Below, piece by piece: positions 3,197 to 49,901 of a stretch of 64,000 nucleotides of DNA (positions within the stretch are counted from its first letter, which is position 1; each line of letters starts with the position of its first letter). The DNA lies in assembly GCA_963719055.1 (NCBI GenBank), contig CAVRAU010000023.1:136699-200698 (forward strand), in the 5' to 3' direction. Below the pieces are notes generated by a model. That model saw nothing but the letters and a program-made list of their open reading frames with translations. It had not been told where the DNA came from and searched no databases. The position numbers and the translations under genes were made by a program. Source of the stretch: an uncultured Acidobacteriota bacterium (GTDB taxonomy: Bacteria; Acidobacteriota; Thermoanaerobaculia; Multivoradales; JAHEKO01).

Positions 3197-3214
3197 TGCT
3201 TTGGGTTCCTCCGG

Positions 3215-5804: not shown

Positions 5805-5805
5805 C

Positions 5806-6399: not shown

Positions 6400-6402
6400 C
6401 GC

Positions 6403-11464: not shown

Positions 11465-11471
11465 TCGACTC

Positions 11472-31838: not shown

Positions 31839-31854
31839 TGGCACGCAATCTGCA
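31839..31854 (+). promoter_or_regulatory. sigma54 (-24/-12) promoter
   Basis: TTGGCACGcaatCTGCA. GG and GC are 11 nt apart; TGGCACG-N4-TTGCA has one mismatch. ~50 nt upstream of the pilin start, with a GAGGAG RBS at 31895-31900. Confidence 0.65.
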
Positions 31855-31909
31855 GAAAGGGTATTCGAGCGAAGCGGAAACACTAACTGTTACAGAGGAG
31901 TGAATGACT

Positions 31910-32458: not shown

Positions 32459-32478
32459 GCTTTCACTCTCTGAAAGCA

Positions 32479-33934: not shown

Positions 33935-36361
33935 TTCGGTTGCTGCCGGTCATCATCGGCATCATCGCCCTGTCCATCCTCTACGGACAGCTACTTCTCC
34001 CGGGCAGAGCGCTGGCCGAGCGCGATATTCCCGGTCTTCATCTCCCCATGCTCACCGACCTCGCTCGCGTCGGCGCCGAGGGGATCCCCTACTGGAACCC
34101 CTCGATTCATGGGGGACAGCCCCTGCTCACCAATCCTCACTACGCCACCTTCTACCCGCCGACCTGGATGATCTTTCTGCTGCCCGTCGATTACGTCATC
34201 GGTCTACTGGTCTTTCTGCACGCGCTCTGGGCTTTCGTCGGCGCCTGGAGGTTGGCGCGGCGCTGGGGGTGCGAATCGGCCGCGGCCAGTCTGGCCGCCG
34301 TGGCATTTGTCGGCGGTGGCGCCTTCGTGTCTTCACCCAATCTGCTCAATCTGTTCCTGGGGATGGCCTGGCTGCCTTGGATTCTGGCGCTGGGGCGAGG
34401 AGGCCCTGCGGGAGCCAGCGGCCAGACAATGGGTCCCGGCGAGCGTCAAAACCGCTCTCGGAATCGGCGCCCAGGTTCTGGTGGGCAGCCCGATCATGCC
34501 GCTTGCTCAGTCTGTTGGCACTCCTGTGTCTGGCTCTCGAATACGTGCCGAGTCGCTGGTACCGGGTCGCACGGCTGGTGCCGATCGGTCTGACCTCCCT
34601 GGCTATCGCCGCCATTCAGCTGCTGCCGACTCTGCGACACATCGCCGACTCCTCCAGGGGGGCGGGCTTGGATCTCCACACCGCGACGACCTGGTCGACA
34701 CCCCCGGCGAGGTTCGCCGAGTTCTTCTGGCCGCGCATCTATGGCGACCCGACAATGGCCGAATCCCTCTTGTATTTCGGCTACCCCGGTGTCGAGCGAC
34801 CGGTGCCCCTGATTCTCTTCATCTACACCGGTCTGATGATCCTGGCGCTGGCGTTGGGCGGTCTTTTCGACAAACAGCTTCCCCGACGTCGCACCCTGAT
34901 CACCCTCATGCTTCTTGGGCGCCTTCCTCTCCTTGGGCCGCTACAACCCCCTCTACACCGCAGTCCTGGTCAAGGTGCCGCCTTTCTCGGCGATCCGATT
35001 TCCCGAGAAGTTCCTCATCTTGACCACCACCGCGATCGTCTTTGCGGCAGCCCTGGCCTGGCAGGGAATCCTCTCCAGTCGAGGCGAGGATCGAAAGGCG
35101 CGGCTGAGGGCGCCGCTGATCGTCGCCAGTGTCGCCCTGGTGCTGACGGCTATTCTCTATCTGGCCCCGCTGGTGGCACCGGATCTCGCAGTCCGTCTCA
35201 TCGAGGGAACCAGCGCCGAGAAGTTGCAGTGGTACGACAAGCCGGCAGGAGAGGCGACGCTGCCAGCCGAAGTCCTGGCCGTCAGGGCCGGTTACCTGGG
35301 CAAGGAGACCTTTGTCGCCGGTGTTTTCTGGTTCGGGGCCCTGATCCTTCTGCGCCTCCATTCGAGACCTGGGTTCTCGCCAGCTCTGCTGGTCGGACTC
35401 GTTCTGGCGCTGGTCACTGTGGAATTCGCGTACTACGGCCGGACCGTGAACAACCCGATACCCGCTGGCTTTCTACGCCAGCCACCAAGGGTATTGCAGC
35501 AGCTCCCGCCCTCGACTGGGCGGGTCTTCTCCGACGCGGGTCTCTTCAACGACTGGGAGTTCTTCATCCCCTCACCCGAGGAAAAGGTGCCACCGTCCTT
35601 ACAGCGATTCCTTCTGCGGCTCGATCCCTACTCGGCGAATCTCTGGGGATATTCCTATGCCCTGGAAACCGATCCCGACAAGATGATCAACCGGTGGGGG
35701 CGACATGCTCTGGAGACGCTGAGAACCGACTCGACTCTGTTGAGTGAGGGCTGGTCCGTGAGAGCCTATAGGTTCCTCGGCGCGTGGAATGTCGGCATCG
35801 TCGTCCGACGCCGATCGCCCAAGGCCCAGATGGATGAGAAGGAGCGCACGGGAACCATGCCGGACCCGGCGCGCGTGATCGGCAACCCCTATGTCCTGGA
35901 GAGATTCCGGTTTGTCTCCCGAGTGGACTCGTGTGCCGATCTGCCCGCCGCTGTGCAGCGGATCAAGGATCGAGACTTCGATCTCGAGGATTTCGACGCC
36001 ATCGTGGTCCCCTCGACAGCAGGCCGGGGGCCGCAGCCTGGAATTCGACTCGCAGGCCGAGGTGACCGTTATCGAAGACCACGCCAGCCGCATTCTGGTC
36101 GACTACCAAGCCCAGAACAAGGCCTTCCTGGTGGCCGCCATCACCGCCGACCGCGATTGGTCAGCGCGAGTGGATGGAGCCTCCACCCCCATCCAGGTCA
36201 CCGCCCTGGGTCAGATGGGCATCGAGCTCCCTGCGGGGTCCCACCGCCTGGTGCTCGAGCATCGGAATCCGGTGCTGATCTGGGGTGCCCTCATCAGCGG
36301 GCTCGCGCTCCTGGCTTGCGCGACCCCTCTCATTACCCGGACAATGCGTCATGGTGATTGA
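33919..36361 (+). CDS. second YfhO-family GT-C-like membrane protein (three or more apparent frameshifts)
   Basis: 'LPMLTDLARVGAEGIPYWNPSIHGGQPLLTNPHYATFYPPTWMIFLLP' parallels the N-terminal loop of the 18715-21030 paralog. C-terminus 'IELPAGSHRLVLEHRNPVLIWGALISGLALLA' matches the paralog C-terminus. Confidence 0.55.
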
Positions 36362-37128
36362 GTCCATCTTCTTCCTGCTCTGGGTGGGACTGGTCGGCCT
36401 GGTTGTCGGCAGCTACCTGAACGTCCTGATTCACCGGATTCCCCGGGGAAAGTCAACAGTCCTGCCCCGCTCGAGATGCCCCTATTGCCAGGGACCCATT
36501 CGGGCCAGGGACAACCTGCCGGTTCTGAGCTTCCTCATCCTGCGCGGACGCTGCCGCCACTGCCGGGCGCCGATCTCCTGGCGCTACCCGATCATCGAGG
36601 GCCTCACCTCCATCCTTTTCGTGGCGAGTCTTCTCAAGTTCGGAATCAGTCCGAGCCTGGTCCATGCACTGGTCTTTTCATGCTTGATGGTATTGCTGGC
36701 AGCCATCGACATGGAGCACTTCCTTCTCCCTGATCGCCTCACCCTGCCCGGCATCTTCGTCGGCCTGGGGCTGCAGCTCTGGGCTCCGATGCCGGGATTG
36801 CTCGATGCCGTGGTCGGCACCGCTGGTTGGCGCCGGCATCCTGATTCTGGTCATCAACTACTGGTACTGGTGGCGGGGTGAGGAGGGCATGGGAATCGGG
36901 GACGTCAATATGCTGGCACTGATCGGTGCGTTTCTGGGCTGGCAAGGTGTCTTGACGACAATCGTCCTGGCGACCTCGAGCGGGGCGCTGGTGGGGATCA
37001 GCATGCTCCTGGCCGGCCGCCTCGGCATGCGCTCGCGGTTGCCCTTCGGCTTCTTTCTGGCCCTGGGTGCTCTCCTGACCTTGTTCTTCGGCGATCTGCT
37101 GATCGCCTACTACAGCGGGTTGCTATGA
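36351..37128 (+). CDS. pilD: prepilin peptidase / N-methyltransferase (A24 family) (apparent frameshift ~36815)
   Basis: 'LPRSRCPYCQGPIRARDNLPVLSFLILRGRCRHCRAPISWRYP' is the tetracysteine zinc motif. Polytopic TMs. The A24 catalytic region 'GMGIGDVNMLALIGAFLGW' lies in a second frame. Confidence 0.8.
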
Positions 37129-38864
37129 GTCGTCGGCGCTGGCCGCGGCTCGGACTGCGGCGCGAGATCCAGATTCTCTTGCCGGTCACGGTCTTTCTGC
37201 TGGTTCTCATCTCCGGGTTCACTCTGTTCGCCTATCGCAGTGCCATCGACCTGTTGGTCGAGGAGCGCCAGCGAGAAGTCCTGGCCATCACCCAGAAGTT
37301 CGCCATCGATCTTGCCGCGGGCCCCTGGCCCACACCCACAGAGCTGCGTCGACAGGCCCCAGCCGCCAGTCGCATCGCCATTGCCGACACCACCGGTCGC
37401 CCGCTGCGCTCCTTCGGCGCCCAGGCGACTGGCAACCTTCTCACTCCGTTGCAGGGCCAACCTCTGACCCGAGCCGTGGCGTTCGGACCCGGTGCGGCCG
37501 CAGGCGACTCTGTCATGGGCTTCGCCCCCTTCCGGTATCAAGACCAGAGCTTCATCCTCCGTCTCGAGATGCCGGCCATGGAGTTGTCTCGGCAAAGGCA
37601 GGGAGTTGGCGTTCTGACCTGGGTCGTTCTGCCCACCAGCGTCGCGCTACTGATGCTGACCCTGCTCTTTCTGCCCCACTTCTTGAAGCCCTACGACACG
37701 CTGGTGGAGCAGGTGCAGCGGGTGACGCCGGACAGCGACGATCAGGACGATGTCTCGATGCTCGTGTCCACTGTAGACAAGGCGTTGACCGCTCTGGCAG
37801 CCGCCTCCAAAGAGTCCTCGGAGGACGACTTCACCGCCCTGCAGCGCACACTGGGGGCCAGCCTGGAGAGCGGTCTTCTCCTTCTCGATCAGCAGGGGCT
37901 GGTCCTGACTCTCAACCAGCTGGGCAGCGATCTCCTCGAGATCGACCCGATCGAGGAACCGGTTCCCGTGGCGACCTGTCTGGAGACTCATCCGGGGCTG
38001 CTCGCCATGTTGTCCCAGGCCGTGACTGAAGCCAAGGGTCTTCCCCGTCAGGAAATTCGCCTCGAGACCTCCGAGGGCGGTCGCACCCTGGGATTCACGG
38101 TTCATGTCCTGCGACGGGACGACAGCACGGTCCGGGGCCATCTCGCTCTGTTCGTCGATCTCACGGAAAGCCACCGGGAAGCCGAAGCTCGCCAGCTCGC
38201 CACCAGTCTGGAGCAGCTCGGTGAGGTGGCCGCAGGAGTCGCTCATGAACTGCGCAACAGCTTGGCGACCCTGCGTGGATATCTGACGCTCATCGAACGC
38301 CATCCGGATGAAGAATCCATCACCGACTATCTGCAGGAGATCCGTCGAGAAAGCGACCACCTGCAGAGGGTTGTCGAAGACTTCCTGTCCTTCGCGCAAC
38401 CGGACAGCGCCCGGGTCGAAACCGTGGATCTGCTGGCAATCGCTCGCAGAGCGGCCGCCGACCCGGCCCTGGAAGCGGTACCGGTGGAGATCGAACCCCA
38501 AGGAAGTGCATCGTGGAAGCTGCAAGGGGATGCGCAGCTGTTGGAGCGGGCGCTGCGCAATCTTCTGCACAATGCCGCTCGAGCCGAGCAGGACGCCGGA
38601 CGATCAGGTCCCATTCACCTGAGCCTGCAGCAGAGAGGGGACCAGATCGAGCTGGCAGTCGAGGATCGCGGGCCGGGAATTCCCACCGAGGTCCGCACCA
38701 GACTCTTCCAGCCCTTCGCCACAGGCCGCAGTGACGGTGTGGGTCTGGGCCTTTCCCTGGCTCACCGCATCGTGACGCTGCATGGCGGCAGGATCGATCT
38801 CGAGGACCGCCCGGGAGGCGGGACCCGAGCGGCGATTTCATTTCCCTTTGGCATTTTTGTGTAG
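37125..38864 (+). CDS. sensor histidine kinase (2 TM, periplasmic sensor, HisKA + HATPase_c)
   Basis: H-box 'GVAHELRNSLATLRGYL', N-box 'LRNLLHNAARA' and G-boxes 'DRGPGIP...GVGLGLSLA'. ATGA overlap with pilD. Confidence 0.85.
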   Translation: MSRRRWPRLGLRREIQILLPVTVFLLVLISGFTLFAYRSAIDLLVEERQREVLAITQKFAIDLAAGPWPTPTELRRQAPAASRIAIADTTGRPLRSFGAQATGNLLTPLQGQPLTRAVAFGPGAAAGDSVMGFAPFRYQDQSFILRLEMPAMELSRQRQGVGVLTWVVLPTSVALLMLTLLFLPHFLKPYDTLVEQVQRVTPDSDDQDDVSMLVSTVDKALTALAAASKESSEDDFTALQRTLGASLESGLLLLDQQGLVLTLNQLGSDLLEIDPIEEPVPVATCLETHPGLLAMLSQAVTEAKGLPRQEIRLETSEGGRTLGFTVHVLRRDDSTVRGHLALFVDLTESHREAEARQLATSLEQLGEVAAGVAHELRNSLATLRGYLTLIERHPDEESITDYLQEIRRESDHLQRVVEDFLSFAQPDSARVETVDLLAIARRAAADPALEAVPVEIEPQGSASWKLQGDAQLLERALRNLLHNAARAEQDAGRSGPIHLSLQQRGDQIELAVEDRGPGIPTEVRTRLFQPFATGRSDGVGLGLSLAHRIVTLHGGRIDLEDRPGGGTRAAISFPFGIFV

Positions 38865-38974
38865 AAAAGAAACAAAACTCGCACACCGGGGTCTGTCGTG
38901 AGAATCCCTTGGCAACACTCCTAAGTCCTTCTCTCACAAGTAGTTGATGCGTATTCAAAGAGATGCCAGAGACC

Positions 38975-38989
38975 TGGCACTACTCTTGC
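38975..38989 (+). promoter_or_regulatory. sigma54 (-24/-12) promoter upstream of minor-pilin operon
   Basis: TGGCACtactcTTGCg. GG/GC spacing is 11 nt, a near-consensus match. ~65 nt upstream of the fimT-like start. Confidence 0.6.
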
Positions 38990-39052
38990 GACACCATAGA
39001 TCCGATCTCAGCGATGTGTCCGTTGATGGACGACCCACGGAGAGACCAGAAA

Positions 39053-39698
39053 ATGCGTTCCAATCGTCAAGACCACTCGCACGCAGGCTTCACCCTCTTC
39101 GAGCTGCTCGTCGTGATCGCCCTGATCTCCATCATGGCGACCATGGCGACACCCAATTTCCTGCGTTTGATTCAACGCTCGAAGCTCACCGGCATCGCCC
39201 AGGAGACATCGTTGCTCATGCGGATGGCGCGTGACTACGCGATCCGCTACAACACGGAAACCGTTGTCCGCATCGACGTGAACACCAACGAAGTCATCGC
39301 TTTTGTCGAAGTGGACGGCGTCCTCCCCGGTGACCCGGGTGACCGGATCTTCAACCCCATCGCCGGCAGCCCACATCGCTCTACCGATTGGGAACTGGCC
39401 AGATACCAGCTGCCGAGTCGGGTGACGTTCGATGCCCCGGCGGCTGACCCACTGGTCGGAGGCGGTACGCCCATCTGGGCGTTCACTCCGGTGGCCGGAG
39501 AGAACGTTGCGGTGTTTCAGCCCAATGGATCAGCCGACACTACGGGGAGCCTTTCGGTTTGCCGATCCCTTCGGGAACTTTCTGCAGGTCCGGGTCGAGC
39601 CGGCGGCCACGGGTCGCGTGCGGATCGAGAAGTTCCACGACGCCGACGTGAGGTGGTACTTCCGCAACGAGAACAACAAACCCTGGGAATGGAAGTAA
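39053..39698 (+). CDS. FimT/GspH-like minor (pseudo)pilin (apparent frameshift ~39555)
   Basis: 'HAGFTLFELLVVIALISIMATMATPNF' prepilin motif. The C-terminus in the alternative frame ends '...RVEPAATGRVRIEKFHDADVRWYFRNENNKPWEWK'. Confidence 0.7.
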
Positions 39699-39720
39699 CG
39701 GCAGCGAGAGGAACCTACCC

Positions 39721-40329
39721 ATGCTGAACCAAAGGAGATCTGCTGTGTACAGAAAACAAGTTTCTCGTCGGGGCGGCTTTTCCCTGATCGAGGTGCTCAT
39801 CGCCATGGGCATCGTCCTCATCGCGATGGTCGGGCTGCTGCCGCTCTTCATGCGCTCGGTCCTGCAGAACATCGAGGGCCGGGAATCCACCATCGCCGGC
39901 AATCACGGGCGTTCGGAGATGGAGACCTACAGCGAGCTCGGCTTCAACAATTGGGAGCTCGAGCTCACCGCCGGCACAGAGCGAATCTCGCAGTTGTTCT
40001 ACACGAATGGCGAGGTGGACAAGCGAGGCGACGAGTCCTGGGTCACCGTCGTCCCGGCTGGGGAAATCGCGCCCTGGACACAGACCACGACCATTCGTCA
40101 ATTCGGTCTCAACGGGGTGGTCGACACGGATCTGGATGGCGTCATCGATCTGATCCGTGGCTTGGAGGATGACGACCACGACGGCGAGCTCGACAACCCG
40201 CTGGCGGCGGGGACTCTCGCCGGAGCCGTCCATCTGAAACAGGTCGAGGTGGATGTCGCGGGGGAGAAGGATTGGGCCCACGGCGGCGGCGCGGGTCAGA
40301 TCACCGTCGAGACTCTCAAGGCTTTCTAA
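39721..40329 (+). CDS. PilV/GspI-like minor pilin
   Basis: 'RRGGFSLIEVLIAMGIVLIAMVGLLPLF' prepilin motif. 202 aa. Confidence 0.65.
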   Translation: MLNQRRSAVYRKQVSRRGGFSLIEVLIAMGIVLIAMVGLLPLFMRSVLQNIEGRESTIAGNHGRSEMETYSELGFNNWELELTAGTERISQLFYTNGEVDKRGDESWVTVVPAGEIAPWTQTTTIRQFGLNGVVDTDLDGVIDLIRGLEDDDHDGELDNPLAAGTLAGAVHLKQVEVDVAGEKDWAHGGGAGQITVETLKAF

Positions 40330-40343
40330 GGAGGATGGGCGAG

Positions 40344-41686
40344 ATGACTTCATACGAAACGCACAGACCTCGGCCCAGGCGCCGCGTGCCTCGCCGGCAG
40401 GGTTACTCCCTGGTCGAGCTTGTCATCGCCTTCGCCGCTGCGATCATCATTCTGCTGGTGCTCTTCCAGGCCTTCCAGGCCAAGACCCAGCTGGCCCGCA
40501 CCCAGATCGATGTCTCGGACATGCAGCAGGCGCAGCGCGTCATCCAACACGAGATGAGCCGACTGATTCGCATGACCGGTCGAGGCGGCCTGGCCGACAT
40601 GGTCGACAGAGGCAACGGTACCCGCTATCAGCCGGCCCTGACCGTTCGCGACGACGTGGCGTCGGGACAGAACATCGCGATCGGTGACGCCAGCACCCCT
40701 CTCGTGGCCGAGGGGACCGACGTCCTGACGATCCGGGGTGTCTTCAACTCCCCGGTCTACCAGCTCAACTTCGCCAGTCCCGCGACTCTGGCACTCACCA
40801 TCAATGGCGTCGACACCACCGACGAAACGCAGGCCACAGACGGGACTCTCCTCGTCACCGATCCGAGTCCCACTGGTGTGCCGCAGGATCTGACAGCCGC
40901 TCTGCAATGCTGTCGCCGGAGACGCCTTGCTGCTCGTCAGCCCCATCGACGAGGCGATCTACGCGGTGGTCGAGATCAGCAATGGCCCCAATTGTGGTGC
41001 CGGTCAGGCCTCGGTCCCATTCGACGTCACGGGTGGCACCTACACCAGCGAATTCAGGACCCTCTACAACTCCGGTCTGGGTGGCAATCCGACCCTGCCC
41101 AGCGGCCTCTCCAACGTCGCACTGGCCGGGCTCGTCGAGGAGTTTCGGTTCTATGTCCGCGAGCCCGATCCCAATACCATCGCGGCCCCGGCGCTTTCCG
41201 TCGCCAGCATGATCCCCGGCACCGAGATCGTCGACCCCAGGACGACCAGCAGGCAATAACGTGCGTCTCGATCTGGCGGACAACATCCTCGATCTGCAAG
41301 TTGCCCTGGGCTATGACTCGGCTCTGGGGGACGCCCTGACCGATCGCAACGGCGACGGCTTTACCAACGAGGACGACATCGTGCTGACCGAGACCGCCGA
41401 CGGTCAGGACGACGACTGGCTTTTCAACCACGATCAGGACGACCCCGACGCGGCACCCTTCGTACCGCCTTGGGACACCGATCCCCTGACCGCCACCCCG
41501 GAGCAGCCGGACATCTACTTCGTGCGGCTCACCACCCTGGCCCGGGTCCAGGTGCCCGATCGGAACTTCGACTCCCTCGAGATCGCGAGGATCGAGAACC
41601 GGGACGTGGATCCCTTCAACACCTTGGATGAACGGCGTTTTCGTCGCCAACTGATTCAATCGACCATCGACCTGAGGAATCTCTGA
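40344..41686 (+). CDS. PilW/GspJ-like minor pilin (two apparent frameshifts ~40915, ~41255)
   Basis: AAGGAGG RBS 9 nt before ATG 40344. 'RQGYSLVELVIAFAAAIIILLVLF' prepilin motif. C-terminal 'DIYFVRLTTLARVQVPDRNF...' is PilW-like. Confidence 0.6.
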
Positions 41687-42252
41687 TGCGTAGATCCAAC
41701 CGCACCCTCCGTCGCCAACAGGGCAGTGTCTATATCCTCGCCCTCCTGGTCCTCCTCATTCTCACCATCGTCGGGCTCGCCGTATCGCTCGTCACCCAGA
41801 GCGAGATGCAAATCGGTATCAACGAGCGCCTCGGTCACCAGGCGTTCCACTCGGCCACCAGCGGCATCGACATCGCCATGGCCAAGGCCCTGGTGATGCC
41901 CGACCTGCGGTCGTTCGAGCTCGATCTGGTCGAGCCCGGCACCGATGTGGCCAATCTCAACATCCGCCACCGTCTCGAAGTGTCCCCGTTTCTGCCAATC
42001 CTCAGCGCTCCCTGCAATCTCTGCCAGATCAACGAGGGCGCCGAGTTCATGAAGATCAACCATGCCGTCGCCTCCACGGCGACACGCATCGCCTGGATGG
42101 GCAATCCCGACACCCCACCCGATGTTCCGACGCCGCTGGCGCAGGAGCAACTGAGTGTGTTGGTCTCATTCCAACCCTGGCGAATGGACATCACATCCGG
42201 CGTCGACGCCGCCACCGATCCGAACCGTGGTGGCCTCGACAACGCGTTCTGA
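41686..42252 (+). CDS. PilX/GspK-like minor pilin
   Basis: 'QQGSVYILALLVLLILTIVGLAVSLVTQSEMQIGINE' is a PilX N-terminal type motif (no Glu +5). 188 aa. Confidence 0.6.
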   Translation: MRRSNRTLRRQQGSVYILALLVLLILTIVGLAVSLVTQSEMQIGINERLGHQAFHSATSGIDIAMAKALVMPDLRSFELDLVEPGTDVANLNIRHRLEVSPFLPILSAPCNLCQINEGAEFMKINHAVASTATRIAWMGNPDTPPDVPTPLAQEQLSVLVSFQPWRMDITSGVDAATDPNRGGLDNAF

Positions 42253-42284
42253 TCCGCGAGAATTTCTAGAAGGAAGGTGTCGCC

Positions 42285-45200
42285 ATGACTCGAAGGATCT
42301 CATTCTCGAACCCCATGTTTCGACTCGTCTGCCTCTTGATGGTAGCGACGCTGGTCACCAGCACAGGTATCGCCGACGACCGCGATCTGGTCAAGGAAAG
42401 CGGTGAAGTACCCTACCTTTTCGTCATCTTCGACGTCTCCGGGTCCATGAACTGGACACCGCCGGACCTCGACAACGGCCTGCCTGAGGATCGCTGGGCC
42501 CCCGGCTCGGGTGACGATCCCAACTCGAAGTTCTACCAGGCGAAATCCGCCCTGTTCCAGGTCATGCAGGATCCCGATCTCCAGGGCATCAACTGGGGAT
42601 TTGCCACGTACAACCAAGACCAGGTGCGGGCCTACCGCAAGCACTATCTCTACTCGCCGGTGGAAGACCCGCCCTGGGCGACCGATCTCCCCTATCCGCT
42701 GCCAGGCACACCCAAGCATTTCGGGGACACCTGTATGGACGACTCCGACGGCGGCTCGGGTTGTGATCTGGATGCGGATATGGCCGAAGTCGCCTGGAAC
42801 GCCGGCCGCAGTGCCTGGGCCATGGGAACCTGTGGAGCGCCACAGGATCTGGCGAATCTCGAGAGCACTGGCGAGCTCATTTCCTTCCCCGTCTTGGGAC
42901 CCTATGGAACTGCGGAGACCATCGAATGGGTGCGGTCTCAAGGCCGCGAGTTCGAGGTCACCTGGCACGACGTGGATTCCGGCGCCTATGGCGACGACAA
43001 CATCGTGGTCGAGGTCAGCGTGCGGGAGCGCGACGGATGTGGCAGCTACGGCATGTCATGGAACAACGTCGATCTGGAGTTCACCAAGACCTACCCCACC
43101 GACAACAACGGTCGTGACCTGCCGGGCGGCAGCGAGACGCTGATCTGGCAGGGCGATGGCTTCACCGACGGCGCGGGCAACCCCGCAGGTTTCTACGACC
43201 CCGACGACACGCGAGCGACCAACACCTGTCGCGGCTGGGAACCCAACAGCGACGCCGGCAACGATGTCGCCGCCGGCGTCAATGCCAAGTACCCCACGAC
43301 CTCCGACCCTCTGAGCCGTCATACCTCGGGCTTTCGACCGGGGTGACGTCATCCCCTTCGACTGGCAGGATGAAGAGGCCTGGGGTGCTGGCAACAGCAA
43401 CCGTGCCCAGATCCTCAAACGTCTGGCTCCCAGCTTCGACTTCGCCGATCCCGCGACGGCCGACTTCCGGGTGGCCCCCTACTTCCAGGACCTGCCCGAC
43501 AGTTTCACCGCCACGGGCGCCCAGGGAAGGCTGGCTCTGAAACCGGAGTACGTCATCACCCCGCCACTGCTGCCCAGCGGCTCGACGCCGATCGGCAACT
43601 CGATGTACAACTTCATGCAGTGGTTCGATCAATGGAAGACGGTGGCCACGGGCCCGGTTGGCGACGACCAGTTCGGCTGCCGAACGGTCAACCTGCTGAT
43701 CCTGAGTGATGGCGACGAGACCTGCTACAACGGCGGTATCGACGGCACCACGGATGGCGGCGGGGATCGCAATCCCTGCTGGATGGCCGATCGCCTCTTG
43801 ACTCAGAACAACCGCAGTATCCGCACCTTCATCATCGGCTTCGGCGTGCCGGGCACGAATGCCAACTTCCTCAACTGCATCGCGGAGCGGGGCGGCACGG
43901 ATGCCATCGATCTGGACAACGACGGTGTCACCGATGTCGAGGGACCGATCCTGCCCGGCAACGAGCAGGAGCTGGTCGATGCCATGAAACAGATCGCCAA
44001 CGCGGTCAAGAGCCAGTCCCGGTCCTTCGCCTCCGCCGCGGTACCGCAGGCGCAGGTCAATGTCGATGACAAGGTCTATCTGACCAGCTTCATGCCCCTG
44101 CAGGGTGAACCTATCTGGCCGGGACGATTGGATGCCTATCTGCGCCCCGTACCCCTGCGCGAGCAGGATGTGGTGCTGCCTGATGGAACCATCGTCACCC
44201 GCCTGGTCCCCGACCCGACGCAGGGCTGTGCCGCGGGAGACGAAAGCCAGTGCCACATCTGGAACGCGGGCGAGGAGCTGCTGCTCCAGGCCGCGGAAGA
44301 CACCCAACTCATCGACATGGGGAGCGGTGTCGGCGACGGCACCTTCAACCTGGGCAACGGTGAGCTGCGACGTCGCGTCTACTACTCCATCGATCGCAAG
44401 AACTTCCAGGTGCCCGATCGCCGACGCTTCTTCCGACTCAATGCCGGCAACAGTGACGGTCTATGGCGGGACATGTTGTATGGAATGGATATCTGTCACC
44501 GAGACGATCCCGCTTGTACACTCGACTCAAGACAATCGAGATATCGCCTCCGAGAACATGAACTTCACCCATGGTGTCAAGACCGCCGAGGATCCGACCG
44601 ACCCCGGTACCTACTTCGACTACATCCTGGGTGACTTCTTCCACTCCGATCCGCTCGTGTACGGCAACCCGGACAATTTCGCCTACTGGGTCGGCGACGC
44701 GGAAGGCAGCGGCACGCTGCCGCTGCAGGATCCTTGTGACACCTCACCCGATGGCTACCGCTGCTTCTTTGCCCAACATCGGTATCGCCGCAAGGTGATC
44801 ATCGCGGGCACCAACGATGGCCAGGCCCATATCTTCGATGCCGGGTTCTTCCGCGGTCCCAACGGGAATCCGACCGGTCTCTGCGAATCGAACCCGGTGA
44901 CCAGCCAGGAGTTTGTGGTCGGCGAGTTCGACAAGGGGACAGGACGGGAGCTGTTCTCCTATGTTCCGCGCACGGTCATGCCCATGATGGAAGACCTCAG
45001 AACAGACAAGCGTGCAGGACTTCTCGGTCGACGGCCGGATCGCTCGCGGCGATGCCTTCATCGACCCCGTGCAGGGGGACGGAATTCCCAATCCCAGTGA
45101 AAGAGAATGGCGAAGCACGCTGGTGGGGACCCTGCGGGAAGGCGGTTCCGGATTGTGGGCCATCGATATCACCCAGCCCGACGTCCTGCTCGAATGCGAT

Positions 45201-46565
45201 GGTCTCAACGCAGATTCCACAGGCACGCAACGGTGCCCTCGACTACGTCCCCTCCTGCACCAACGGTGGCATCGATTGCGGCACGGCCCGCTACCCCGAG
45301 GTCATGTGGGAGTTCGAGGACAGCAAGGACTGCGTCATATGAGATAGACGACCCCTACCTGGACCATCCCGGCATAGACCCTGAAACGGAAGCCAAACGG
45401 TGCGATGATGACGGCAACGGCTTTGTCGATCTCGGCGATACCTGGTCCCGACCGACCATCGCCCGAATCCGTGTCGACTCCGACGCGGACGGTGGCGTCG
45501 TCGACAAGTACGTCGCGGTCTTCGGTGGCGGGATGGATCCCGACGAGAAGCACTCGGCAGATCAATCCCGAGTGCGTGGGAACTTCCTGTACATGGTGGA
45601 TATCGAGACCGGTCGCGCCATCTACAAACGGGCCGTGATCGGATCGGCCGCCGGCGATCCCGCGGTGGTCGACACCGATCAGAACGGCTATGCCGACACG
45701 GTCTACTTCGGCACGACCGCCGGCTATCTCTACAAAGCGGATATCAGCTCCGTGGAGATTCTCGAGGATCTGGGAAATGCGGGTGGCTTCAAGGTGACCT
45801 CCGAGAACTGGGAGCCTTTCGCCATCTTCAATACTTTCGATCGCCCCATCTATCACGAGCCCACGGTGGTCTTCGTGACCGAGCTGGGCAAATACGCGGT
45901 GGCCTTCGGCACCGGCGACCGGGAGGATCTCTGGGACGACAGCTATCTGGGCCAAGCCCAGGAACGAAGGTCGCTTCTACATGTTCGTGGACCGTGACTT
46001 CGGAAGGAACGATGGCTTTCTGCCGCAGGATGAGACCGACTACCAGCAGATTGCCCTGACCGACACCAACACGACGGCCGACTACCTGCGGCAAGCCCCC
46101 TACGGCTGGTACCTACGTCTCGATCCAACGGAACGGGTCATCTCCGAGGCGTTCTCGTTGGCCGGCGTCACGATCTTTTCCTCCTACGTGCCCGAGGAAT
46201 CGATCAGCGACGATGGATCGGTCTGCCAGCGCTTTGGCGACAGCAGGATCTACCTCGTCACCTCGACGGCCGCCAACACCCTGCTGAGCACCAACGAGCG
46301 CTACTTCACCGTCGAGCAGGGTTTCTTGTCACCTCCGTTCGCCGAGACGTCGCAGACCAAGAACCCGCCCGATGGGGATGAGGGACCCGGTGACTTGCCG
46401 GACGATATGGTCAATGTGGTGAACGAGATCAAGAAGCTCCTGCCGACCAACTGCAAGTACGCCAACTACACCATCAATATCAAGGCGGTGCGTGACGACA
46501 CCGGTATCGAGTTCCTCGCCGCCATTCCGATCTGTACCGTGGAGGCCAACTGGAAGGACTTCTAA
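42285..46565 (+). CDS. PilY1/PilC-like pilus tip adhesin with N-terminal vWA (MIDAS DVSGS) domain and C-terminal PilY1 beta-propeller; five or more apparent frameshifts
   Basis: Signal peptide 'MFRLVCLLMVATLVTSTGIA'. 'YLFVIFDVSGSMNW' is a vWA MIDAS motif. The C-terminus 'QNGYADTVYFGTTAGYLYKADIS...GKYAVAFGTGDRED' matches the conserved PilY1 C-domain. ORF pieces span four frames. Confidence 0.7.
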
Positions 46566-46567
46566 AG

Positions 46568-47294
46568 ATGAAGCTACGCCAGACTCTCGCTGTTGTGATC
46601 TTCGGTTGCGGCTCCCTGGCCTGGCTGGCCAGTGGAGCCGCCGCCGATTGGCTGGTGGCCAGCGATGGCTCCAGAATCGAGACCACGGGACCCTTCAAGG
46701 TCGAAGGCAAGTTGGTGATCTTCACGTTGCCGAACGGTACCCTGGGCTCGCTGCCTCTCTCGGAGGTCGATCTGGAAGCCAGTCGCTGCGCTGACCGCGC
46801 AAGCTGCCGCCGAAGACCCGCCTGCAGACGAGCCGGACCGTCCCAAGGCGGTGCTGGTGATCACCGACGCTGATGTCGGACATCCCAATCTCGGCAGAAC
46901 CCGGGCCCCCGAAGAGGACGACACCATCCCGGCCGAGGCGCCAGCTCCGGAGCTACGGGTATCCAATTGGCGAGAGAATCTGGATCAGACCACCAACTCC
47001 GTCGAGATCAGCGGCACCCTGGAGAATCCGACCGACAATCCAGCCACTTCGATCGAGCTCGAGGTAGTCCTCTACGACGAAGAGGGCGGCCTGCTGGAGC
47101 GCAGCAGTGCCAGGCTCGAGCGAGGGTTTCTCAACCCCGGCACCAGTACGCGGTTCGACTCGGATTTCAACGAGACCATGAGTTACGACCACGTCGAATT
47201 CCACATCCGGAGTCGGGGGTTCATGGCCCATCCACCGGACGAGGAACCGCAGGTCGAGGGTGAAGACGACGACGAGAGCCCGGACTGGCAGTAG
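46568..47294 (+). CDS. hypothetical secreted protein (signal peptide; acidic C-terminus); apparent frameshift ~46790
   Basis: 'MKLRQTLAVVIFGCGSLAWLASGAAA' is a signal peptide. No recognisable domain. Lies directly after the pilY1-like gene (2-nt gap). Confidence 0.4.
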
Positions 47295-47314: not shown

Positions 47315-48531
47315 TCAAGGACCCGTATCGGGTTCGCCTTCGGTGGCCCCGTCGCTGATGGCCGAGCCGGTGGCGACCCGAAACCGCCGCAGAATGCTCC
47401 AGGGGCCCCGCTCGCCATCGTCGTCGAAGGCGGCAACCCGCCAGACGAAGCTCCCCGTCCCCTGCAGACCAATGGTCGCCGAGGTCTCGGTACGGTCGGC
47501 CAGATCGATGATGTTCTGGACGAAGAAACGGGTTCTGGCGACCTGCAGCGCATAGCGGCTGGCGCCTTCGACCGGACGCCACTCCAGCACCAGCTCGCCA
47601 TCGGCTGCCATGACAGCCTCGTAGTTGTCCTCGGGCCCGAGAAGCAACGGTGCGTTGGGCAGCAGCTTCTTTCTGGATAGGGCCGTGCCCTGTTGGACGA
47701 CCTGCTCCAGAGGCCCCACATCTCGACTGGAACCATCCGAGGAGGAGACCACCATCTGGCCCTCATAGGCGGCGAACCGGCTGGTGTCCTCTTCCGGATC
47801 GTGGCTGATGGCCGCCTTGCTGTCGCGCTGGACTCTCGCCTCCGCTTGCGGCGTCGAAATGCGGCTGCTGGTCTGAGCGGTTCCCAAATCGACCCACCCT
47901 GCCTCCAGATCGATGGTGCGCTGCCGCGCCTCGCCGGGTGCCGGCCGGGTGCGGCCGATCAGGAGCACGGTATCCGGTCGCACCGTGTACAGGGTGCCAT
48001 CGACGGACATGATCTCTGCCGAACCACTGCCAGTGGTCTTGACATAGTCGCCCGCGTTGAGGGCCACGCGGCTGCGAGCGGTCTGCCATGAGCCGCGGTC
48101 TCCACGTCGGTACTGGACGCCACCCTGGACCGCAATGAACATGGCCTCGCCCTCGGCACCACGCATTCGCAAGGTGCTGAGAATCGACGCCAGCAGCGTG
48201 CGGCTGCGCTCGGCGCTAACGAACGACTCGCGCAGCGCCCCAGCGCTCTGATGCTCCCGCGCCTCCTCCAAATGACGACGGGCCACGAAGTACTCCTCTC
48301 GGTAGCTGTTGATCGCGCCTTCGCTGCGCACTGTGCGCAGAAGATCTTCGGCCTCCAGGATGACCCTGGCCACTTCCCTTTCAAGGACCATTCGATCCAG
48401 AAATCTGTAGCCCATGACTCCCACGATTCCCAAGACCAGCAGGACGACCACGAAACCCCACCCCTTGACGGAATCGAGCGAGACCGTGTACCAGTCGACC
48501 AGTTTGCGGGACTTGTTCTCCGAGCTCACTG
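47315..48531 (-). CDS. membrane-anchored FecR-domain protein with C-terminal Fn3-like domain
   Basis: Putative GTG start at 48531 with AGAGGAA upstream. TM 'GWGFVVVLLVLGIVGVMGY'. FecR-like 'RVALNAGDYVKTTGSGSAEIMSVDGTLYTVRPDTVLLIG'. C-terminal 'LEWRPVEGASRYALQVA...GSFVWRVAAFDDDG' is Fn3-like. Confidence 0.55.
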
Positions 48532-48590
48532 AACTGATTCCTCTGACGGGTGGTTTTGCACGGGGTCTCGAATATAGCAGGCGACGACGC

Positions 48591-49901
48591 CCTATTTCCG
48601 ATACTCCGGGAAGCCCCCGAGATCGTATTCCTTGATCCGGCGCTGCAGCGTACGATAGCTGATCCCCAGAACTGCCGGCGGCCTGATGCTTGTCGCCATC
48701 GGCCTGGGTCAGGGCCTCGCAGATGCGCTGGCGATCGTTACCGCTACCCAGAGCGGAGAGCAGTGGACGCAGCTCGGCGGCTCCCAGCCGCAGACCCTCG
48801 CCGACGATCATGGCGCGCTCCAGGACGTTGGCCAACTGTCGGACGTTGCCCGGCCAGGGGTGCGATTCCAGCAACTCCAGGGCATCGTCCGTCAACTGCC
48901 GGCGGCTCGATTTCTGACGCTCCGCGAGGCGATCGAGAAGATACTGCGCCAGCAGCGGAATATCGCTCGGCCGATCTCGCAAGGCAGGGAGCTCGATCGG
49001 AAAGACCTCCAGCCGGTAGAACAAGTCTTCGCGGAAGCCTCCGGCCTCGGCCATCGCGGCCAGATTCCGATTGGTGGCGGCCACCAACCTGACATCCGCG
49101 TGCAGGGTCTGTGAGCCCCCCACACGCTCGAAGGTCCGTTCTTCCAACACCCGCAAGACCTTGGCCTGAACCGCCAGGGGTAGCTCGCCGATCTCATCCA
49201 TCAGCAGGGTGCCGCTCTTGGCCACTTCGAAGCGACCGGGCTGGCGTCGGTGGGCGCCAGTGAAGGCGCCTCTTCTCGTGCCCGAAGAGCTCATTTTCGA
49301 TCAACGTCTCCGGGATGGCGGCACAGTTGACAGCCACAAAGGGCCCCTCGCGACGCGGAGACAGCGCGTGCAGCGCCCGAGCAAAGAGCTCTTTGCCGGT
49401 GCCGCTTTCGCCGGTCAACAGGACCGTGCTGTCGGTGCGGGCCACGCGTTCGAGAAGTCGGAGGGCGGTGCGGACCTTGGGGTGCGCACCCACAATGGTC
49501 GGTCCACCGGCAACGCTGAAAGAATCCTCGGCGGCTGTCTCGCCCGCCACGGCAGCCACGAGTCGGAACAGATCGTCGATCTCGACCGGCTTTTCCAGGA
49601 AGTCCACGGCTCCTTCTTTCATGGCCTCCACGGCCGTGTGAACGGTCCCGTAGGCTGTCAGGACGACTACAGGCAATCCTGGATTCAGTTTGCGGCTGCC
49701 TCGCAACACATCGATCCCCGACTGGCCGGGGAGCTTGAGATCGGTGAGAACCAGATCGTACTGTCGCGTGGCGAGAAGCTCCAAGGCCGTCTCACCGTCC
49801 GCGGCGGTCTCCACCACATGGCCTTCACCGCTCAAAGCGCGGTCCAACATACGGCGCAGGGACTCCCGGTCCTCCACGACCAGGATACGTGACGAGGACA
49901 T
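48591..49901 (-). CDS. NtrC-family sigma54-dependent response regulator (REC + AAA+ + Fis-type HTH); two apparent frameshifts (~48680, ~49270)
   Basis: REC '[18 protein letters not shown]...[14 protein letters not shown]'. AAA+ '[19 protein letters not shown]', '[10 protein letters not shown]' and GAFTGA. The HTH is recoverable in the alternative frame '[24 protein letters not shown]'. Confidence 0.85.

What the first reader, a model, noticed from the sequence alone, without database searches (positions are those of the whole stretch)
36351..47294. Minor-pilin priming locus: pilD - sensor kinase - (sigma54) fimT/pilV/pilW/pilX-like - giant PilY1-like vWA adhesin - orphan secreted ORF
The gene order mirrors fimU-pilVWXY1 operons. 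The PilY1-like product (~1400 aa) combines a MIDAS-containing vWA domain ('DVSGSM') with the conserved PilY1 C-terminal propeller ('VYFGTTAGYLYKADIS'). It is split into five or more frames. A 240-aa signal-peptide protein with no recognisable domain (46568-47294) follows at a 2-nt gap, where PilY2/PilE sit in Pseudomonas. It is a candidate novel pilus accessory factor.
Basis: partly seen in the sequence, partly recalled or inferred. Interest (0 to 1): 0.6.

Follow-up and report, generated by a model that had tools for sequence, protein, structure and literature searches.

The report
Pilus tip operon with sequencing-error frameshifts
This is an ordinary type IV pilus "minor pilin plus PilY1 adhesin" operon from an Acidobacteriota bacterium whose broken reading frames are single-base insertion errors, and the unnamed last gene is a conserved, uncharacterised secreted partner of this type of PilY1.

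Summary
The locus is real and its coordinates are accurate. It reads pilD, a sensor kinase, a perfect sigma-54 promoter, fimT/gspH-like, pilV, pilW, pilX, a 1424-aa PilY1, and then a 241-aa secreted protein. A convergent NtrC-type sigma-54 response regulator follows.

PilY1 is one gene. Stitched across its six frame changes, it matches intact 1370-1470-aa proteins end to end (82% identity to the best).

The frameshifts are artefacts:
- All 19 mapped between 32.5 and 56.3 kb are net +1 insertions, on both strands.
- They also hit housekeeping genes.
- Every one that could be checked against conspecific metagenome contigs (97-99% nt identity) is absent there.

The "orphan" is not domain-less. 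It has a Sec signal peptide, a small beta N-domain, a disordered linker carrying a conserved V-x-T-D-x-D motif, and a C-terminal FxLYD (NF038353) Ig-like sandwich. Its homologues number at least 426 clusters at 50% identity. One sits directly after pilY1 in 30 distinct relatives' loci, even where PilY1 identity falls to about 31-34%. Paralogues also exist outside pilus contexts.

A role as PilY1 partner rests on operon linkage only. The closest precedent is TfcP in Myxococcus. Interest is modest.

The parts
36351..37128 (+). Prepilin peptidase PilD (259 aa after repair), with one +1 frameshift at about 36820.
   Evidence: Pfam A24_N_bact E=3.5e-34 and Peptidase_A24, split over two frames. tblastn with the intact L001 PilD gives two HSPs in frames 3 then 1.
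37125..38864 (+). Sensor histidine kinase (579 aa, intact). It has two predicted TM helices flanking a periplasmic loop of about 115 aa, then HisKA and HATPase domains.
   Evidence: Pfam HisKA 1.8e-15 and HATPase_c 2.5e-25. Hydropathy segments at 13-41 and 159-187. The kinase lies upstream of fimT in most related loci.
38975..38989 (+). Sigma-54 (-24/-12) promoter TGGCACTACTCTTGC, 64 nt upstream of the fimT ATG.
   Evidence: It is the only exact TGGCAC-N5-TTGC in the 64-kb window. Eleven related loci each have one exact copy; ten lie just upstream of fimT, and in L026 it lies upstream of the cassette where no FimT match was found. A twelfth locus, the pilY1-less paralogue L031, also has one copy. 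It is the only invariant block in 8 aligned intergenic regions.
39053..39698 (+). FimT/FimU (GspH-like) minor pilin (214 aa after repair), with one +1 frameshift at about 39548.
   Evidence: Pfam N_methyl 1.8e-7 and GspH 1.2e-5. NCBIfam prepilin N-terminal domain. The class III signal is G|FTLFE. 72-80% identical to the intact L001 protein.
39721..40329 (+). PilV-like (GspI-like) minor pilin, intact. The true start may be a few codons downstream of 39721.
   Evidence: Pfam N_methyl 3e-6. Weak TIGR02523 PilV and GspI N-terminal hits. G|FSLIE motif. 76% identical to the L001 194-aa protein.
40344..41686 (+). PilW-like (GspJ-like) minor pilin (about 446 aa after repair), with two +1 frameshifts at 40896 and about 41245-41263.
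   Evidence: Pfam PilW PF16074 at 22.9 bits on the C-terminal fragment, below the 26-bit cutoff. The L005 orthologue carries the PilW hit. G|YSLVE motif. The conspecific contig L046 lacks the extra bases.
41686..42252 (+). PilX-like (GspK-like) minor pilin (188 aa, intact). It has no Glu5, as expected for PilX/GspK.
   Evidence: Pfam PilX_N 1.3e-6, 28.8 bits against a 25.5 cutoff. 86% identical to L001.
42285..46565 (+). PilY1-family tip adhesin (1424 aa after repair). It comprises a signal peptide, a vWA-like N-terminal region (DxSxS at residues 50-54, with an insertion of about 330 aa) and a C-terminal PilY1 beta-propeller with an EF-hand-like Ca site, DTDQNGYAD. Six +1 frameshifts lie at about 43328, 44524, 45010, 45209, 45338 and 45954.
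   Evidence: 82% identity and 100% coverage to the intact P0001. Pfam T4P_PilY1 30 bits. Family profile against PDB 3HX6 (P. aeruginosa PilY1 C-terminal domain) E=1.1e-27. Pfam VWA is hit in 16 of 35 homologues.
46568..47294 (+). The 'orphan': a Sec-secreted, two-domain, FxLYD-domain protein (241-242 aa after repair), with one +1 frameshift at 46788. Layout: signal peptide 1-25, small beta N-domain 26-68, linker with a conserved VxTDxD motif, FxLYD beta-sandwich about 129-216, and an acidic tail.
   Evidence: NF038353 E=1.2e-9. 98% identical to the intact P0132. Four conspecific contigs lack the G at 46788. AF2 model with pLDDT about 90-94 in both domains. Conserved directly after pilY1.
47315..48529 (-). 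FecR-domain single-pass membrane protein (404 aa, intact), convergent with the operon and downstream of the response regulator gene.
   Evidence: 87% identical to the L001 404-aa protein. Pfam FecR 6.1e-5 on the L001 orthologue. TM segment at 15-45. Present only in the closest relatives.
48592..49901 (-). NtrC-family sigma-54-dependent response regulator (435 aa after repair), with two +1 frameshifts at 48669 and 49275.
   Evidence: tblastn gives three frames. The intact orthologues in L001, L002 and L006 carry Response_reg, Sigma54_activat and HTH_8. L006 lacks the two extra bases. The gene is conserved convergently after the cassette in most loci.

Best explanation
The region is a type IVa-pilus priming and tip module from an Acidobacteriota (Thermoanaerobaculia-like) genome.

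**Proposed working of the module**
- A sigma-54 promoter drives one operon: fimT(gspH-like)-pilV-pilW-pilX-pilY1-orf241.
- The promoter is presumably activated by the flanking two-component pair. That pair is the periplasm-sensing histidine kinase upstream and the NtrC-type enhancer-binding response regulator downstream.
- PilD, encoded just upstream, cleaves the class III signal peptides of the four minor pilins.
- The four minor pilins plus the Sec-exported PilY1 would form the complex that primes pilus extension and then sits at the tip as the adhesin. PilY1 has a vWA-like N-terminal half and a Ca-binding beta-propeller C-terminal half.
- These steps are inferred by homology to the P. aeruginosa and M. 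xanthus systems.

**The frame breaks**
- The many frame breaks are not biological. They are random single-base insertions in this particular sequence record, at about 1 per kb across the whole window.
- In nature every gene of the module is intact.

**The last gene**
- It encodes a Sec-secreted, non-pilin, two-domain protein: a small beta domain, a flexible linker with a conserved short motif, and an FxLYD Ig-like domain.
- It is tightly (probably translationally) coupled to pilY1 and co-inherited with this PilY1 clade.
- Most likely it is a periplasmic or surface partner of PilY1 that stabilises it, loads it, or adds a binding surface to it. That would be analogous in logic, not in fold, to TfcP of M. 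xanthus.
- This last step is inference from gene linkage only.
For: **Identity of the parts**
- Pfam, NCBIfam and PDB hits support each gene.
- The Ca-site loop DTDQNGYAD aligns with DNNSDGVAD of 3HX6.

**PilY1 is a single gene**
- The stitched 1424-aa product covers 100% of the intact P0001-P0008 (56-82% identity).
- Identical synteny with intact genes is seen in L001 and L002.

**The frameshifts are artefacts**
- All 19 shifts are net +1 on both strands. They hit the M20 peptidase, YfhO (four times), TldD and the response regulator as well.
- Conspecific contigs L006-L009 (98.2-99.2% nt) and L046 (97.1%) lack the extra bases. The sites are 40896, about 41245-41263 (net +1), 45954, 46788, 48669, 49275 and 49958, and the contigs show no single-base deletions.

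**Sigma-54 control**
- A perfect consensus sits 64 nt upstream of fimT.
- It is conserved as the only invariant intergenic block and as a single hit per locus in 11 relatives.
- The kinase and the sigma-54 response regulator flank the cassette in most loci.

**Linkage of the last gene to pilY1**
- A homologue lies directly after pilY1 in L001, L002, L003, L005 and L010.
- The same holds in 22 of 33 species-level genome loci, with estimated gaps of about -30 to +72 nt.
- It also holds in 4 of 4 sampled distant family representatives.
- PilY1 identity falls to about 31-34% and orphan identity to about 30-39% in these loci.
- The profile search finds 426 clusters at 50% identity with E<=1e-30; the 150 best listed are mostly about 240 aa and match across both domains.

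**Precedent**
- M. xanthus minor-pilin/PilY1 clusters also carry cluster-specific, translationally coupled extra genes: TfcP and MXAN_1370 (PMC8833165, PMC13190605).
Against: - No experiment or interaction prediction links the last gene's product to PilY1.
- Its fold is a generic Ig-like sandwich (best Foldseek PDB E about 2e-3: IrmA, Cj0090, DUF1425, ApaG), so the fold says nothing specific about function.
- Ten paralogue loci lie outside any pilus context, next to a hybrid kinase, a CHAT protease, an OMP, a GNAT-ACS gene or a lectin.
- One PilY1 cassette of this clade (L004, 43% identity) lacks the gene.
- The window's own PilY1 does not reach significance for Pfam VWA. A profile of the vWA core finds no solved vWA structure by sequence.
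- No PilT or PilMNOPQ set was identified next to the operon. The only machine cluster in the window (1.5-11.5 kb) looks T2SS/MSHA-like.
- PilY1 frameshifts 1-5 could not be compared with conspecific DNA, only with relatives at 75-82% identity.
Confidence: 0.8

Rival explanations
1. The locus is genuinely decaying. On this reading pilY1 and its neighbours are pseudogenes inactivated by real frameshift mutations in this strain.
For: The frame breaks are really present in the window sequence: 6 in pilY1, 2 in pilW, and 1 each in pilD, fimT and the last ORF.
Against: - The same +1 shifts occur at a similar density in housekeeping and unrelated genes: M20 peptidase, YfhO (four), TldD and the sigma-54 regulator.
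- 19 of 19 shifts are net +1 and none is -1, which is not what mutational decay looks like.
- Conspecific contigs from four independent samples are in frame at every comparable site.
- There are no premature stops or large deletions apart from the shifts, and amino-acid identity to relatives is even along the genes.
Confidence: 0.05
2. The last ORF is not a pilus component or PilY1 partner. On this reading it is a general secreted Ig-like protein that rides in the operon. It might be a periplasmic input to the flanking kinase/response-regulator pair, or a surface protein co-regulated with pili.
For: - Paralogues with the same architecture sit outside pilus loci. One (L031) lies directly after a hybrid histidine kinase.
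- The operon is bracketed by a kinase with a periplasmic sensor loop.
- P. aeruginosa PilY1 and minor pilins are known to feed back on FimS-AlgR (PMC5979040).
- The fold is generic.
Against: - Adjacency is very tight, with gaps from a few nt overlap to tens of nt, and always on the 3' side of pilY1. This holds in 30 distinct relatives' loci across deep divergence.
- All 4 randomly sampled top family representatives are pilY1-linked.
- In L003 the kinase and regulator are absent, yet the gene still follows pilY1.
Confidence: 0.2
3. The four pilin-like genes are type II secretion pseudopilins (GspH/I/J/K) that serve the T2SS/MSHA-like machine at 1.5-11.5 kb. On this reading they are not T4aP minor pilins.
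For: - GspH Pfam and TIGR01708 N-terminal hits for the first gene.
- The machine cluster in the window has T2SSF, T2SSE with an MshEN domain, T2SSM_b and a secretin.
- No pilT was seen in the window.
Against: - A bona fide PilY1 C-terminal propeller protein is encoded in the operon. From established knowledge, PilY1 belongs to T4aP and MSHA-type pili, not to T2SS.
- PilW and PilX_N Pfam families match.
- FimU/PilVWX and GspHIJK are homologous sets, so the GspH hit does not discriminate.
- The NCBIfam GspH/I/J hits are far below their cutoffs.
Confidence: 0.07

Closest known systems
P. aeruginosa fimU-pilVWXY1Y2E minor-pilin operon (with the fimS-algR two-component genes upstream)
   Same: - The same order of four core minor pilins (GspH-, I-, J- and K-like) followed by pilY1.
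- PilY1 has an N-terminal vWA-type region and a C-terminal propeller with an EF-hand-like Ca site that aligns to 3HX6.
- A two-component system is encoded next to the operon.
   Different: - There is no pilE.
- The gene after pilY1 is not a pilin. It could not be compared with PilY2.
- Control is by a sigma-54 promoter and an NtrC-type regulator rather than the LytTR-type AlgR.
- The kinase has 2 TM helices with a periplasmic loop.
- pilD is adjacent.
M. xanthus minor-pilin/PilY1 clusters 1-3 with TfcP or MXAN_1370 (PMC8833165, PMC7541494, PMC13190605)
   Same: - Four minor pilins plus a PilY1 of about 1400 aa.
- A cluster-specific extra gene that is translationally coupled and encodes a Sec-exported non-pilin protein. 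TfcP is periplasmic and stabilises PilY1.1 by promoting Ca binding.
- An NtrC-like regulator (HsfA) controls a pilY1 cluster (PMC9109919).
   Different: - TfcP is a cytochrome c encoded upstream of pilY1.1.
- The protein here has no CxxCH (its single Cys is in the signal peptide), has an FxLYD Ig-like fold, and is encoded downstream.
- There is no sequence relationship between the two.
FxLYD domain family (NCBIfam NF038353); weaker similarity to Pfam DUF7490 and DUF3426
   Same: The C-terminal domain scores 37.9 bits against a cutoff of 23. The predicted seven-strand beta-sandwich has pLDDT about 94.
   Different: - The family is defined only as a domain and has no known function. No paper in the searched library uses the name.
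- The N-domain, the linker motif and the pilY1 linkage are not part of that definition.
PilS-PilR / sigma-54 control of type IV pilin genes
   Same: - A histidine kinase plus an NtrC-family sigma-54 activator.
- A perfect -24/-12 promoter upstream of fimT.
- A second near-consensus site precedes the pilin gene at 31904.
   Different: - The target here is the minor-pilin/pilY1 operon.
- The kinase lacks the six-TM PilS-type N-terminus (2 TM helices).
- The kinase and regulator genes are separated by the operon they presumably control.

Membership tests
T4aP minor-pilin / PilY1 priming module | Four proteins with a prepilin (class III) signal peptide and hydrophobic N-terminal helix. The fourth (PilX/GspK-like) lacks Glu5. 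| tested here: met
   Pfam N_methyl hits FimT (1.8e-7) and PilV (3e-6); the PilW hit is weak (0.0062). PilX_N hits at 1.3e-6. The motifs are G|FTLFE, G|FSLIE and G|YSLVE, and PilX reads QQGSVYILALL without E5.
T4aP minor-pilin / PilY1 priming module | Family-specific globular domains: GspH/FimT, PilW and PilX. | tested here: inconclusive
   GspH scores 26.2 bits (cutoff 21) and PilX_N 28.8 bits (cutoff 25.5), so both are met. PilW PF16074 scores 22.9 bits, below its 26 cutoff, on the window fragment, but it is recorded for the L005 orthologue. PilV is identified only by its N-terminus and its position.
T4aP minor-pilin / PilY1 priming module | PilY1 C-terminal beta-propeller domain. | tested here: met
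   PF05567 scores 30.0 bits (cutoff 28.1) on a window fragment. All 35 of 35 homologues match. The family profile hits 3HX6 at E=1.1e-27 over two stretches.
T4aP minor-pilin / PilY1 priming module | EF-hand-like Ca-binding loop in the propeller (D-x-[DN]-x-[DN]-G-x-x-D). | tested here: met
   DTDQNGYAD in the window aligns with DNNSDGVAD of 3HX6. D1128 and D1136 are invariant, and D1132 and G1133 nearly invariant, in 35 homologues. The ligand numbering is from established knowledge of the P. aeruginosa structure and was not re-read here.
T4aP minor-pilin / PilY1 priming module | Required for pilus priming and present at the pilus tip. | not testable with these tools
   This needs genetics, pilus shearing or proteomics in a cultured relative.
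von Willebrand factor A (vWA) domain with MIDAS | A significant match to a vWA model, plus the DxSxS...T...D metal-site residues. | tested here: inconclusive
   - DxSxS (D50, S52, S54) and the DG of 'LILSDGDET' are invariant in the family.
- Pfam VWA is above its cutoff in 16 of 35 homologues, but only for the C-terminal half of the model (positions 104-172).
- There is no significant hit on the window's own sequence, even with the 330-aa insertion removed.
- The PDB profile search was negative.
FxLYD domain family (NF038353) | A score above the curated cutoff of the NCBIfam model. | tested here: met
   37.9 bits against a cutoff of 23, E=1.2e-9, residues 144-203. The model is a confident beta-sandwich.
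TfcP-type PilY1 accessory protein (M. xanthus) | Cytochrome c fold with a CxxCH haem-binding motif. | tested here: not met
   The only Cys is residue 14, inside the signal peptide, and it is not conserved. There is no cytochrome hit in Pfam or NCBIfam. The protein is therefore not a member; any resemblance is in genomic logic only.
PilE / minor pilin downstream of pilY1 | Prepilin N-terminal methylation motif. | tested here: not met
   There is no N_methyl hit. The N-terminus is a Sec type I signal ending A-A-A|D-W.
Sigma-54-dependent operon with NtrC-family activator | A -24 GG / -12 GC promoter (TGGCAC-N5-TTGC) and a REC-AAA+(Sigma54_activat)-HTH regulator. | tested here: met
   An exact consensus lies at 38975-38989 and is conserved in relatives. 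The regulator's domains are seen in the intact orthologues. Actual sigma-54 dependence was not testable.

The most novel reading that the evidence does not exclude
The 241-aa FxLYD protein defines a large, undescribed family. The family has at least 426 clusters at 50% identity and is seen almost only in Acidobacteriota/Thermoanaerobaculia-type metagenomes. Its pilY1-linked members would be obligate partners of this PilY1 clade. One possibility is a periplasmic chaperone or loader; another is a second, Ig-like binding module of the tip complex. Docking would be through the conserved K-A-V-x-V-I-T-D-A-D-V-G-H linker motif by beta-strand addition. If so, the 'four minor pilins + PilY1' priming complex in this phylum would be a six-protein system.
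Probability: 0.4. Interest if true: 0.5.

Novelty: new variant of a known kind. Interest (0 to 1): 0.32.

Why it matters
- **Annotation.** The apparent 'giant split adhesin' is a data-quality problem. This record carries about one spurious inserted base per kb, so any pseudogene or novel-ORF call made from it is unsafe.
- **Biology.** The finding documents a tidy, conserved T4aP tip module in a poorly studied phylum. It has a sigma-54 promoter bracketed by its own kinase and activator.
- **A testable candidate.** It points to a conserved, uncharacterised secreted protein that travels with PilY1. PilY1-specific helpers are so far known from one case (TfcP). A second, structurally unrelated one would suggest that PilY1 proteins generally need lineage-specific partners.
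- **Scale.** This is a useful lead but not a surprise.

Tried and rejected
1. **Programmed frameshifting or several separate genes in the pilY1 region.** Rejected: relatives encode one intact ORF, and conspecific DNA lacks the extra bases.
2. **Homopolymer-type sequencing error.** Rejected: most inserted bases are not in homopolymer runs, for example CGCT[G]CGCT, CCCA[G]AACT and CTT[C]TCG. They look like random single-base insertions.
3. **Enrichment of frameshifts in pilY1.** Not significant: 6 observed against about 3 expected from the rest of the 24 kb.
4. **Lipoprotein.** The window's 'FGC' could mimic a lipobox, but the Cys is absent in most homologues.
5. **Cytochrome c / TfcP homologue, or PilE-like pilin.** Neither motif is present.
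7. **Confirming vWA by structure or PDB profile.** The PDB profile search and Pfam on the spliced core were negative for the window's own sequence.
8. **A common theme among neighbours of the non-pilus paralogues.** Contexts are heterogeneous; only a GNAT-ACS gene recurs, in L035 and L036.
9. **Literature on FxLYD.** No papers were found.

Full report
**1. What is in the sequence**

The window is about 62% G+C. ORF listing and third-position G+C tracking show a continuous run of + strand coding sequence from 36.3 to 47.3 kb, and its reading frame steps repeatedly.

Pfam and NCBIfam scans of the fragments give these assignments:
- A prepilin peptidase (A24_N_bact E=3.5e-34, Peptidase_A24).
- A HisKA/HATPase_c sensor kinase.
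- A GspH/FimT-type pilin (N_methyl and GspH).
- A PilV-like pilin (N_methyl).
- A PilW-like protein (PF16074, just under its cutoff).
- A PilX_N protein.
- A PilY1 beta-propeller protein (PF05567).

36351 is the PilD ATG and 47294 is the stop of the last ORF. That ORF starts 2 nt after the pilY1 stop.

**2. PilY1 is one gene and the frame breaks are errors**

I stitched the seven open segments of the PilY1 region into a 1424-aa product.
- It matches intact proteins of 1370-1470 aa over 98-100% of its length. The best hit is 82% identical (P0001, 1425 aa), and the search returned 189 hits.
- The contigs encoding P0003 (77% identity) and P0005 (69%) show exactly the same gene order, with every gene intact. 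The + strand run is M20 peptidase, YfhO-like, PilD (258 aa), kinase (579), FimT-like (214), PilV (194-203), PilW (439-443), PilX (188-193), PilY1 (1422-1444) and a 241-248-aa ORF. On the opposite strand follow a FecR-like protein, a sigma-54 response regulator (435 aa) and SelA.

I used the L001 proteins as tblastn probes on the window and mapped 19 frame changes between 32.5 and 56.3 kb.

| Gene | Frame changes |
|---|---|
| M20 peptidase | 1 |
| YfhO-like | 4 |
| PilD | 1 |
| FimT | 1 |
| PilW | 2 |
| PilY1 | 6 |
| Last ORF | 1 |
| Sigma-54 response regulator | 2 |
| TldD | 1 |

- Every change is a step of +1 in the direction of the gene, on both strands. That corresponds to a net single-base insertion.
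- The density in PilY1 (6 in 4.3 kb) is not significantly above the rest of the region (13 in about 19 kb).

Comparison with conspecific DNA is decisive.
- Four contigs from different metagenomes (L006-L009) are 98.2-99.2% identical to the window. A fifth (L046) is 97.1% identical.
- All lack the window's extra base at every comparable site. The sites are 40896 and about 41245-41263 (PilW), 45954 (PilY1 shift 6), 46788 (last ORF), 48669 and 49275 (regulator) and 49958 (intergenic).
- They show no single-base deletions. The only other indels are in-frame 6-nt polymorphisms at 40993 and 47409.
- Most inserted bases are not in homopolymer runs.

The remaining five PilY1 shifts were localised against an 82%-identical contig as uncompensated one-base 'window extra' gaps. 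They lie at about 43328, 44524, 45010, 45209 and 45338. The split adhesin is therefore an artefact of this sequence record, not pseudogenisation and not several genes.

**3. The PilY1 protein**

- A profile of 35 family members hits the solved C-terminal domain of P. aeruginosa PilY1 (3HX6) at E=1.1e-27. In that alignment the window's DTDQNGYAD loop lies on the DNNSDGVAD Ca-binding loop.
- The N-terminal half carries an invariant DxSxS (FDVSGSM) and, about 420 residues later, an invariant 'LILSDGDET'.
- Pfam VWA is above its threshold in 16 of 35 homologues, but only for the C-terminal half of the model.
- The window's own sequence does not reach significance, even with the roughly 330-aa insertion removed.
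- The vWA/MIDAS call is therefore probable by homology but not proven here.

**4. Regulation**

- The 188-nt gap between the kinase and fimT contains TGGCACTACTCTTGC at 38975-38989, 64 nt before the fimT ATG. It is the only exact TGGCAC-N5-TTGC in the window.
- The same exact consensus occurs once per locus in 11 related loci. In ten of them it lies just upstream of fimT; in L026 it lies upstream of the cassette, where tblastn found no FimT match. A twelfth locus, the pilY1-less paralogue L031, also carries one copy.
- It is the only invariant block in an alignment of eight such intergenic regions.
- The kinase has two TM segments around a periplasmic loop. It lies upstream, and the NtrC-type regulator lies convergently downstream, in most related loci.
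- A sigma-54 operon controlled by its flanking two-component pair is the simplest reading.
- NtrC-type control of a pilY1 cluster has a precedent in M. xanthus HsfBA (PMC9109919).

**5. The 'orphan'**

Repaired, the product is 242 aa and 98% identical to an intact 241-aa protein, P0132. Its features are:
- A Sec type I signal peptide (cleavage at A-A-A|D-W) and no prepilin motif.
- The C-terminal half matches NCBIfam FxLYD_dom (E=1.2e-9, above the cutoff), with weak DUF7490 and DUF3426 similarity.
- An AlphaFold2 model from a 32-sequence alignment gives two confident domains. One is a five-strand mini-domain at residues 26-68 (pLDDT about 90). The other is a beta-sandwich at residues 129-216 (pLDDT about 94).
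- The domains are joined by a low-confidence linker. That linker nevertheless contains invariant V97, T99, D100 and D102 within K-A-V-x-V-I-T-D-A-D-V-G-H.
- Foldseek against the PDB returns only generic Ig-like sandwiches such as IrmA, Cj0090, DUF1425 and ApaG, at E>=2e-3.

The word-indexed search found only 36 relatives. An exhaustive profile search found 1506 cluster representatives at E<=1e-3 and 426 at E<=1e-30. The 150 best listed are mostly about 240 aa and match across both domains.

Gene context:
- A homologue lies directly after pilY1 in L001, L002, L003, L005 and L010. The pairwise orphan comparisons with L001, L002, L003 and L005 gave E values of 1e-30 to 1e-98.
- The same holds in 22 of 33 loci from a scan of species-representative genomes. 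Nearly all of these are Thermoanaerobaculia/Acidobacteriota MAGs, and the estimated intergenic distances are about -30 to +72 nt.
- It also holds in 4 of 4 sampled distant representatives, each preceded by a recognisable PilY1 C-terminus (...PVCIVxKNWKEF*).
- Counting L002 and L011 once, because they are the same contig, that is 30 distinct relatives' loci.

Counter-examples:
- One cassette (L004) lacks the gene.
- Ten loci are paralogues in non-pilus, heterogeneous contexts.
- One locus (L041) has copies on both sides of pilY1.

**6. Interpretation**

The module is a standard T4aP priming and tip set, as in P. aeruginosa fimU-pilVWXY1 and the M. xanthus clusters (PMC7541494). Three lineage-specific features stand out:
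- pilD and a kinase lie immediately upstream.
- The operon has a sigma-54 promoter with an NtrC-type activator downstream.
- A conserved sixth gene encodes a secreted non-pilin protein.

M. xanthus clusters likewise carry cluster-specific, translationally coupled extra genes. TfcP is a periplasmic cytochrome c that stabilises PilY1.1 by promoting Ca binding, and MXAN_1370 is of unknown function (PMC8833165, PMC13190605). The protein here is unrelated to TfcP in sequence and fold, having no CxxCH, but it occupies the same logical niche.

I therefore favour a role as PilY1 partner, acting as a stabiliser, loader or co-adhesin. The conserved linker motif is a candidate docking element. This remains an inference from linkage. 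A signalling role towards the flanking kinase, or simple co-regulation, cannot be excluded.

**7. Verdict**

- The interpretation as a minor-pilin/PilY1 locus with a conserved candidate accessory gene is supported.
- The striking feature, the multi-frame giant adhesin, is a sequencing or assembly artefact.
- The only lead of some novelty is the PilY1-linked FxLYD family. Interest is modest.

Noticed in passing
window 32500-56300 (whole window probably): The sequence record carries about 0.8-1 spurious single-base insertions per kb on both strands. All 19 mapped frameshifts are net +1, and I saw no single-base deletions. Any ORF, pseudogene or fusion call from this window needs frame repair. 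One example is the 659-aa ORF at 47315-49294, which is a false fusion of the FecR-like gene with part of the sigma-54 regulator.
   Followed up: yes
window 31839-32473: A pilin or pseudopilin gene lies at 31904-32473 (N_methyl E=3.7e-10; N-terminus KG|FTLIELLIVVAIIGIIAAI). It is preceded by a near-consensus sigma-54 site, TGGCACGCAATCTGC, at 31839-31853. It may be the major pilin served by the same regulator. Its 3' end looks frameshifted.
   Followed up: partly
window 32551-36357, and 18715-21030 (-) with 30305-31741 (+): An M20-family peptidase and an 812-aa YfhO-like (GT-C type) membrane protein lie between the pilin gene and pilD. In relatives they overlap pilD, so they are probably one transcript. 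This may be a pilin-modification (glycosylation) function. A YfhO paralogue lies at 18715-21030 and an M20 paralogue at 30305-31741.
   Followed up: no
window about 1500-11500 (- strand): A separate T2SS/MSHA-like machine cluster is present:
- GspF/PilC-like at 10676-11503.
- An ATPase with an MshEN domain at 8602-10251.
- PilN-like at 6979-7797.
- T2SSM_b at 6403-6900.
- A frameshifted secretin with N-terminal TPR repeats and a C-terminal cohesin domain at 3215-5855.
- A pilin-like ORF at 1576-2304.

It is 25 kb from the minor-pilin operon. LPS core genes (Kdo transferase, LpxK, heptosyltransferase) lie between them.
   Followed up: partly
window 47315-48529 (-): A FecR-domain single-pass membrane protein is encoded downstream of the sigma-54 regulator, convergent with the operon. 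It is present only in the closest relatives (L001, L002, L006, L012-L014) and absent from more distant cassettes. It may be an added input to the regulator.
   Followed up: partly
L041 3965-4648 and 8979-9707; L020 8001-9005 and 15494-16135 (-): Copy-number variants of the orphan exist. L041 has one copy between pilX and pilY1 and another after pilY1. L020 has an extra FxLYD repeat and a second, convergent cassette with its own copy.
   Followed up: partly
orphan residues 92-104 (window about 46840-46880): A short, almost invariant motif, K-A-V-x-V-I-T-D-A-D-V-G-H, sits inside an otherwise variable, low-pLDDT linker. Such motifs often fold upon binding a partner, for example by beta-strand addition.
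   Followed up: no
window 40993 and 47409: In-frame 6-nt indel polymorphisms separate the window from conspecific metagenome contigs (in PilW and in the FecR-like gene). These are real population variation, in contrast to the 1-nt insertions.
   Followed up: yes
L035 8727-12125 (-) and L036 8694-11462 (-): Two non-pilus paralogues of the orphan are each followed by a convergent GNAT-acetyltransferase/ADP-forming acyl-CoA synthetase fusion gene. This looks like conserved synteny for that paralogue subgroup. Its meaning is unknown.
   Followed up: no
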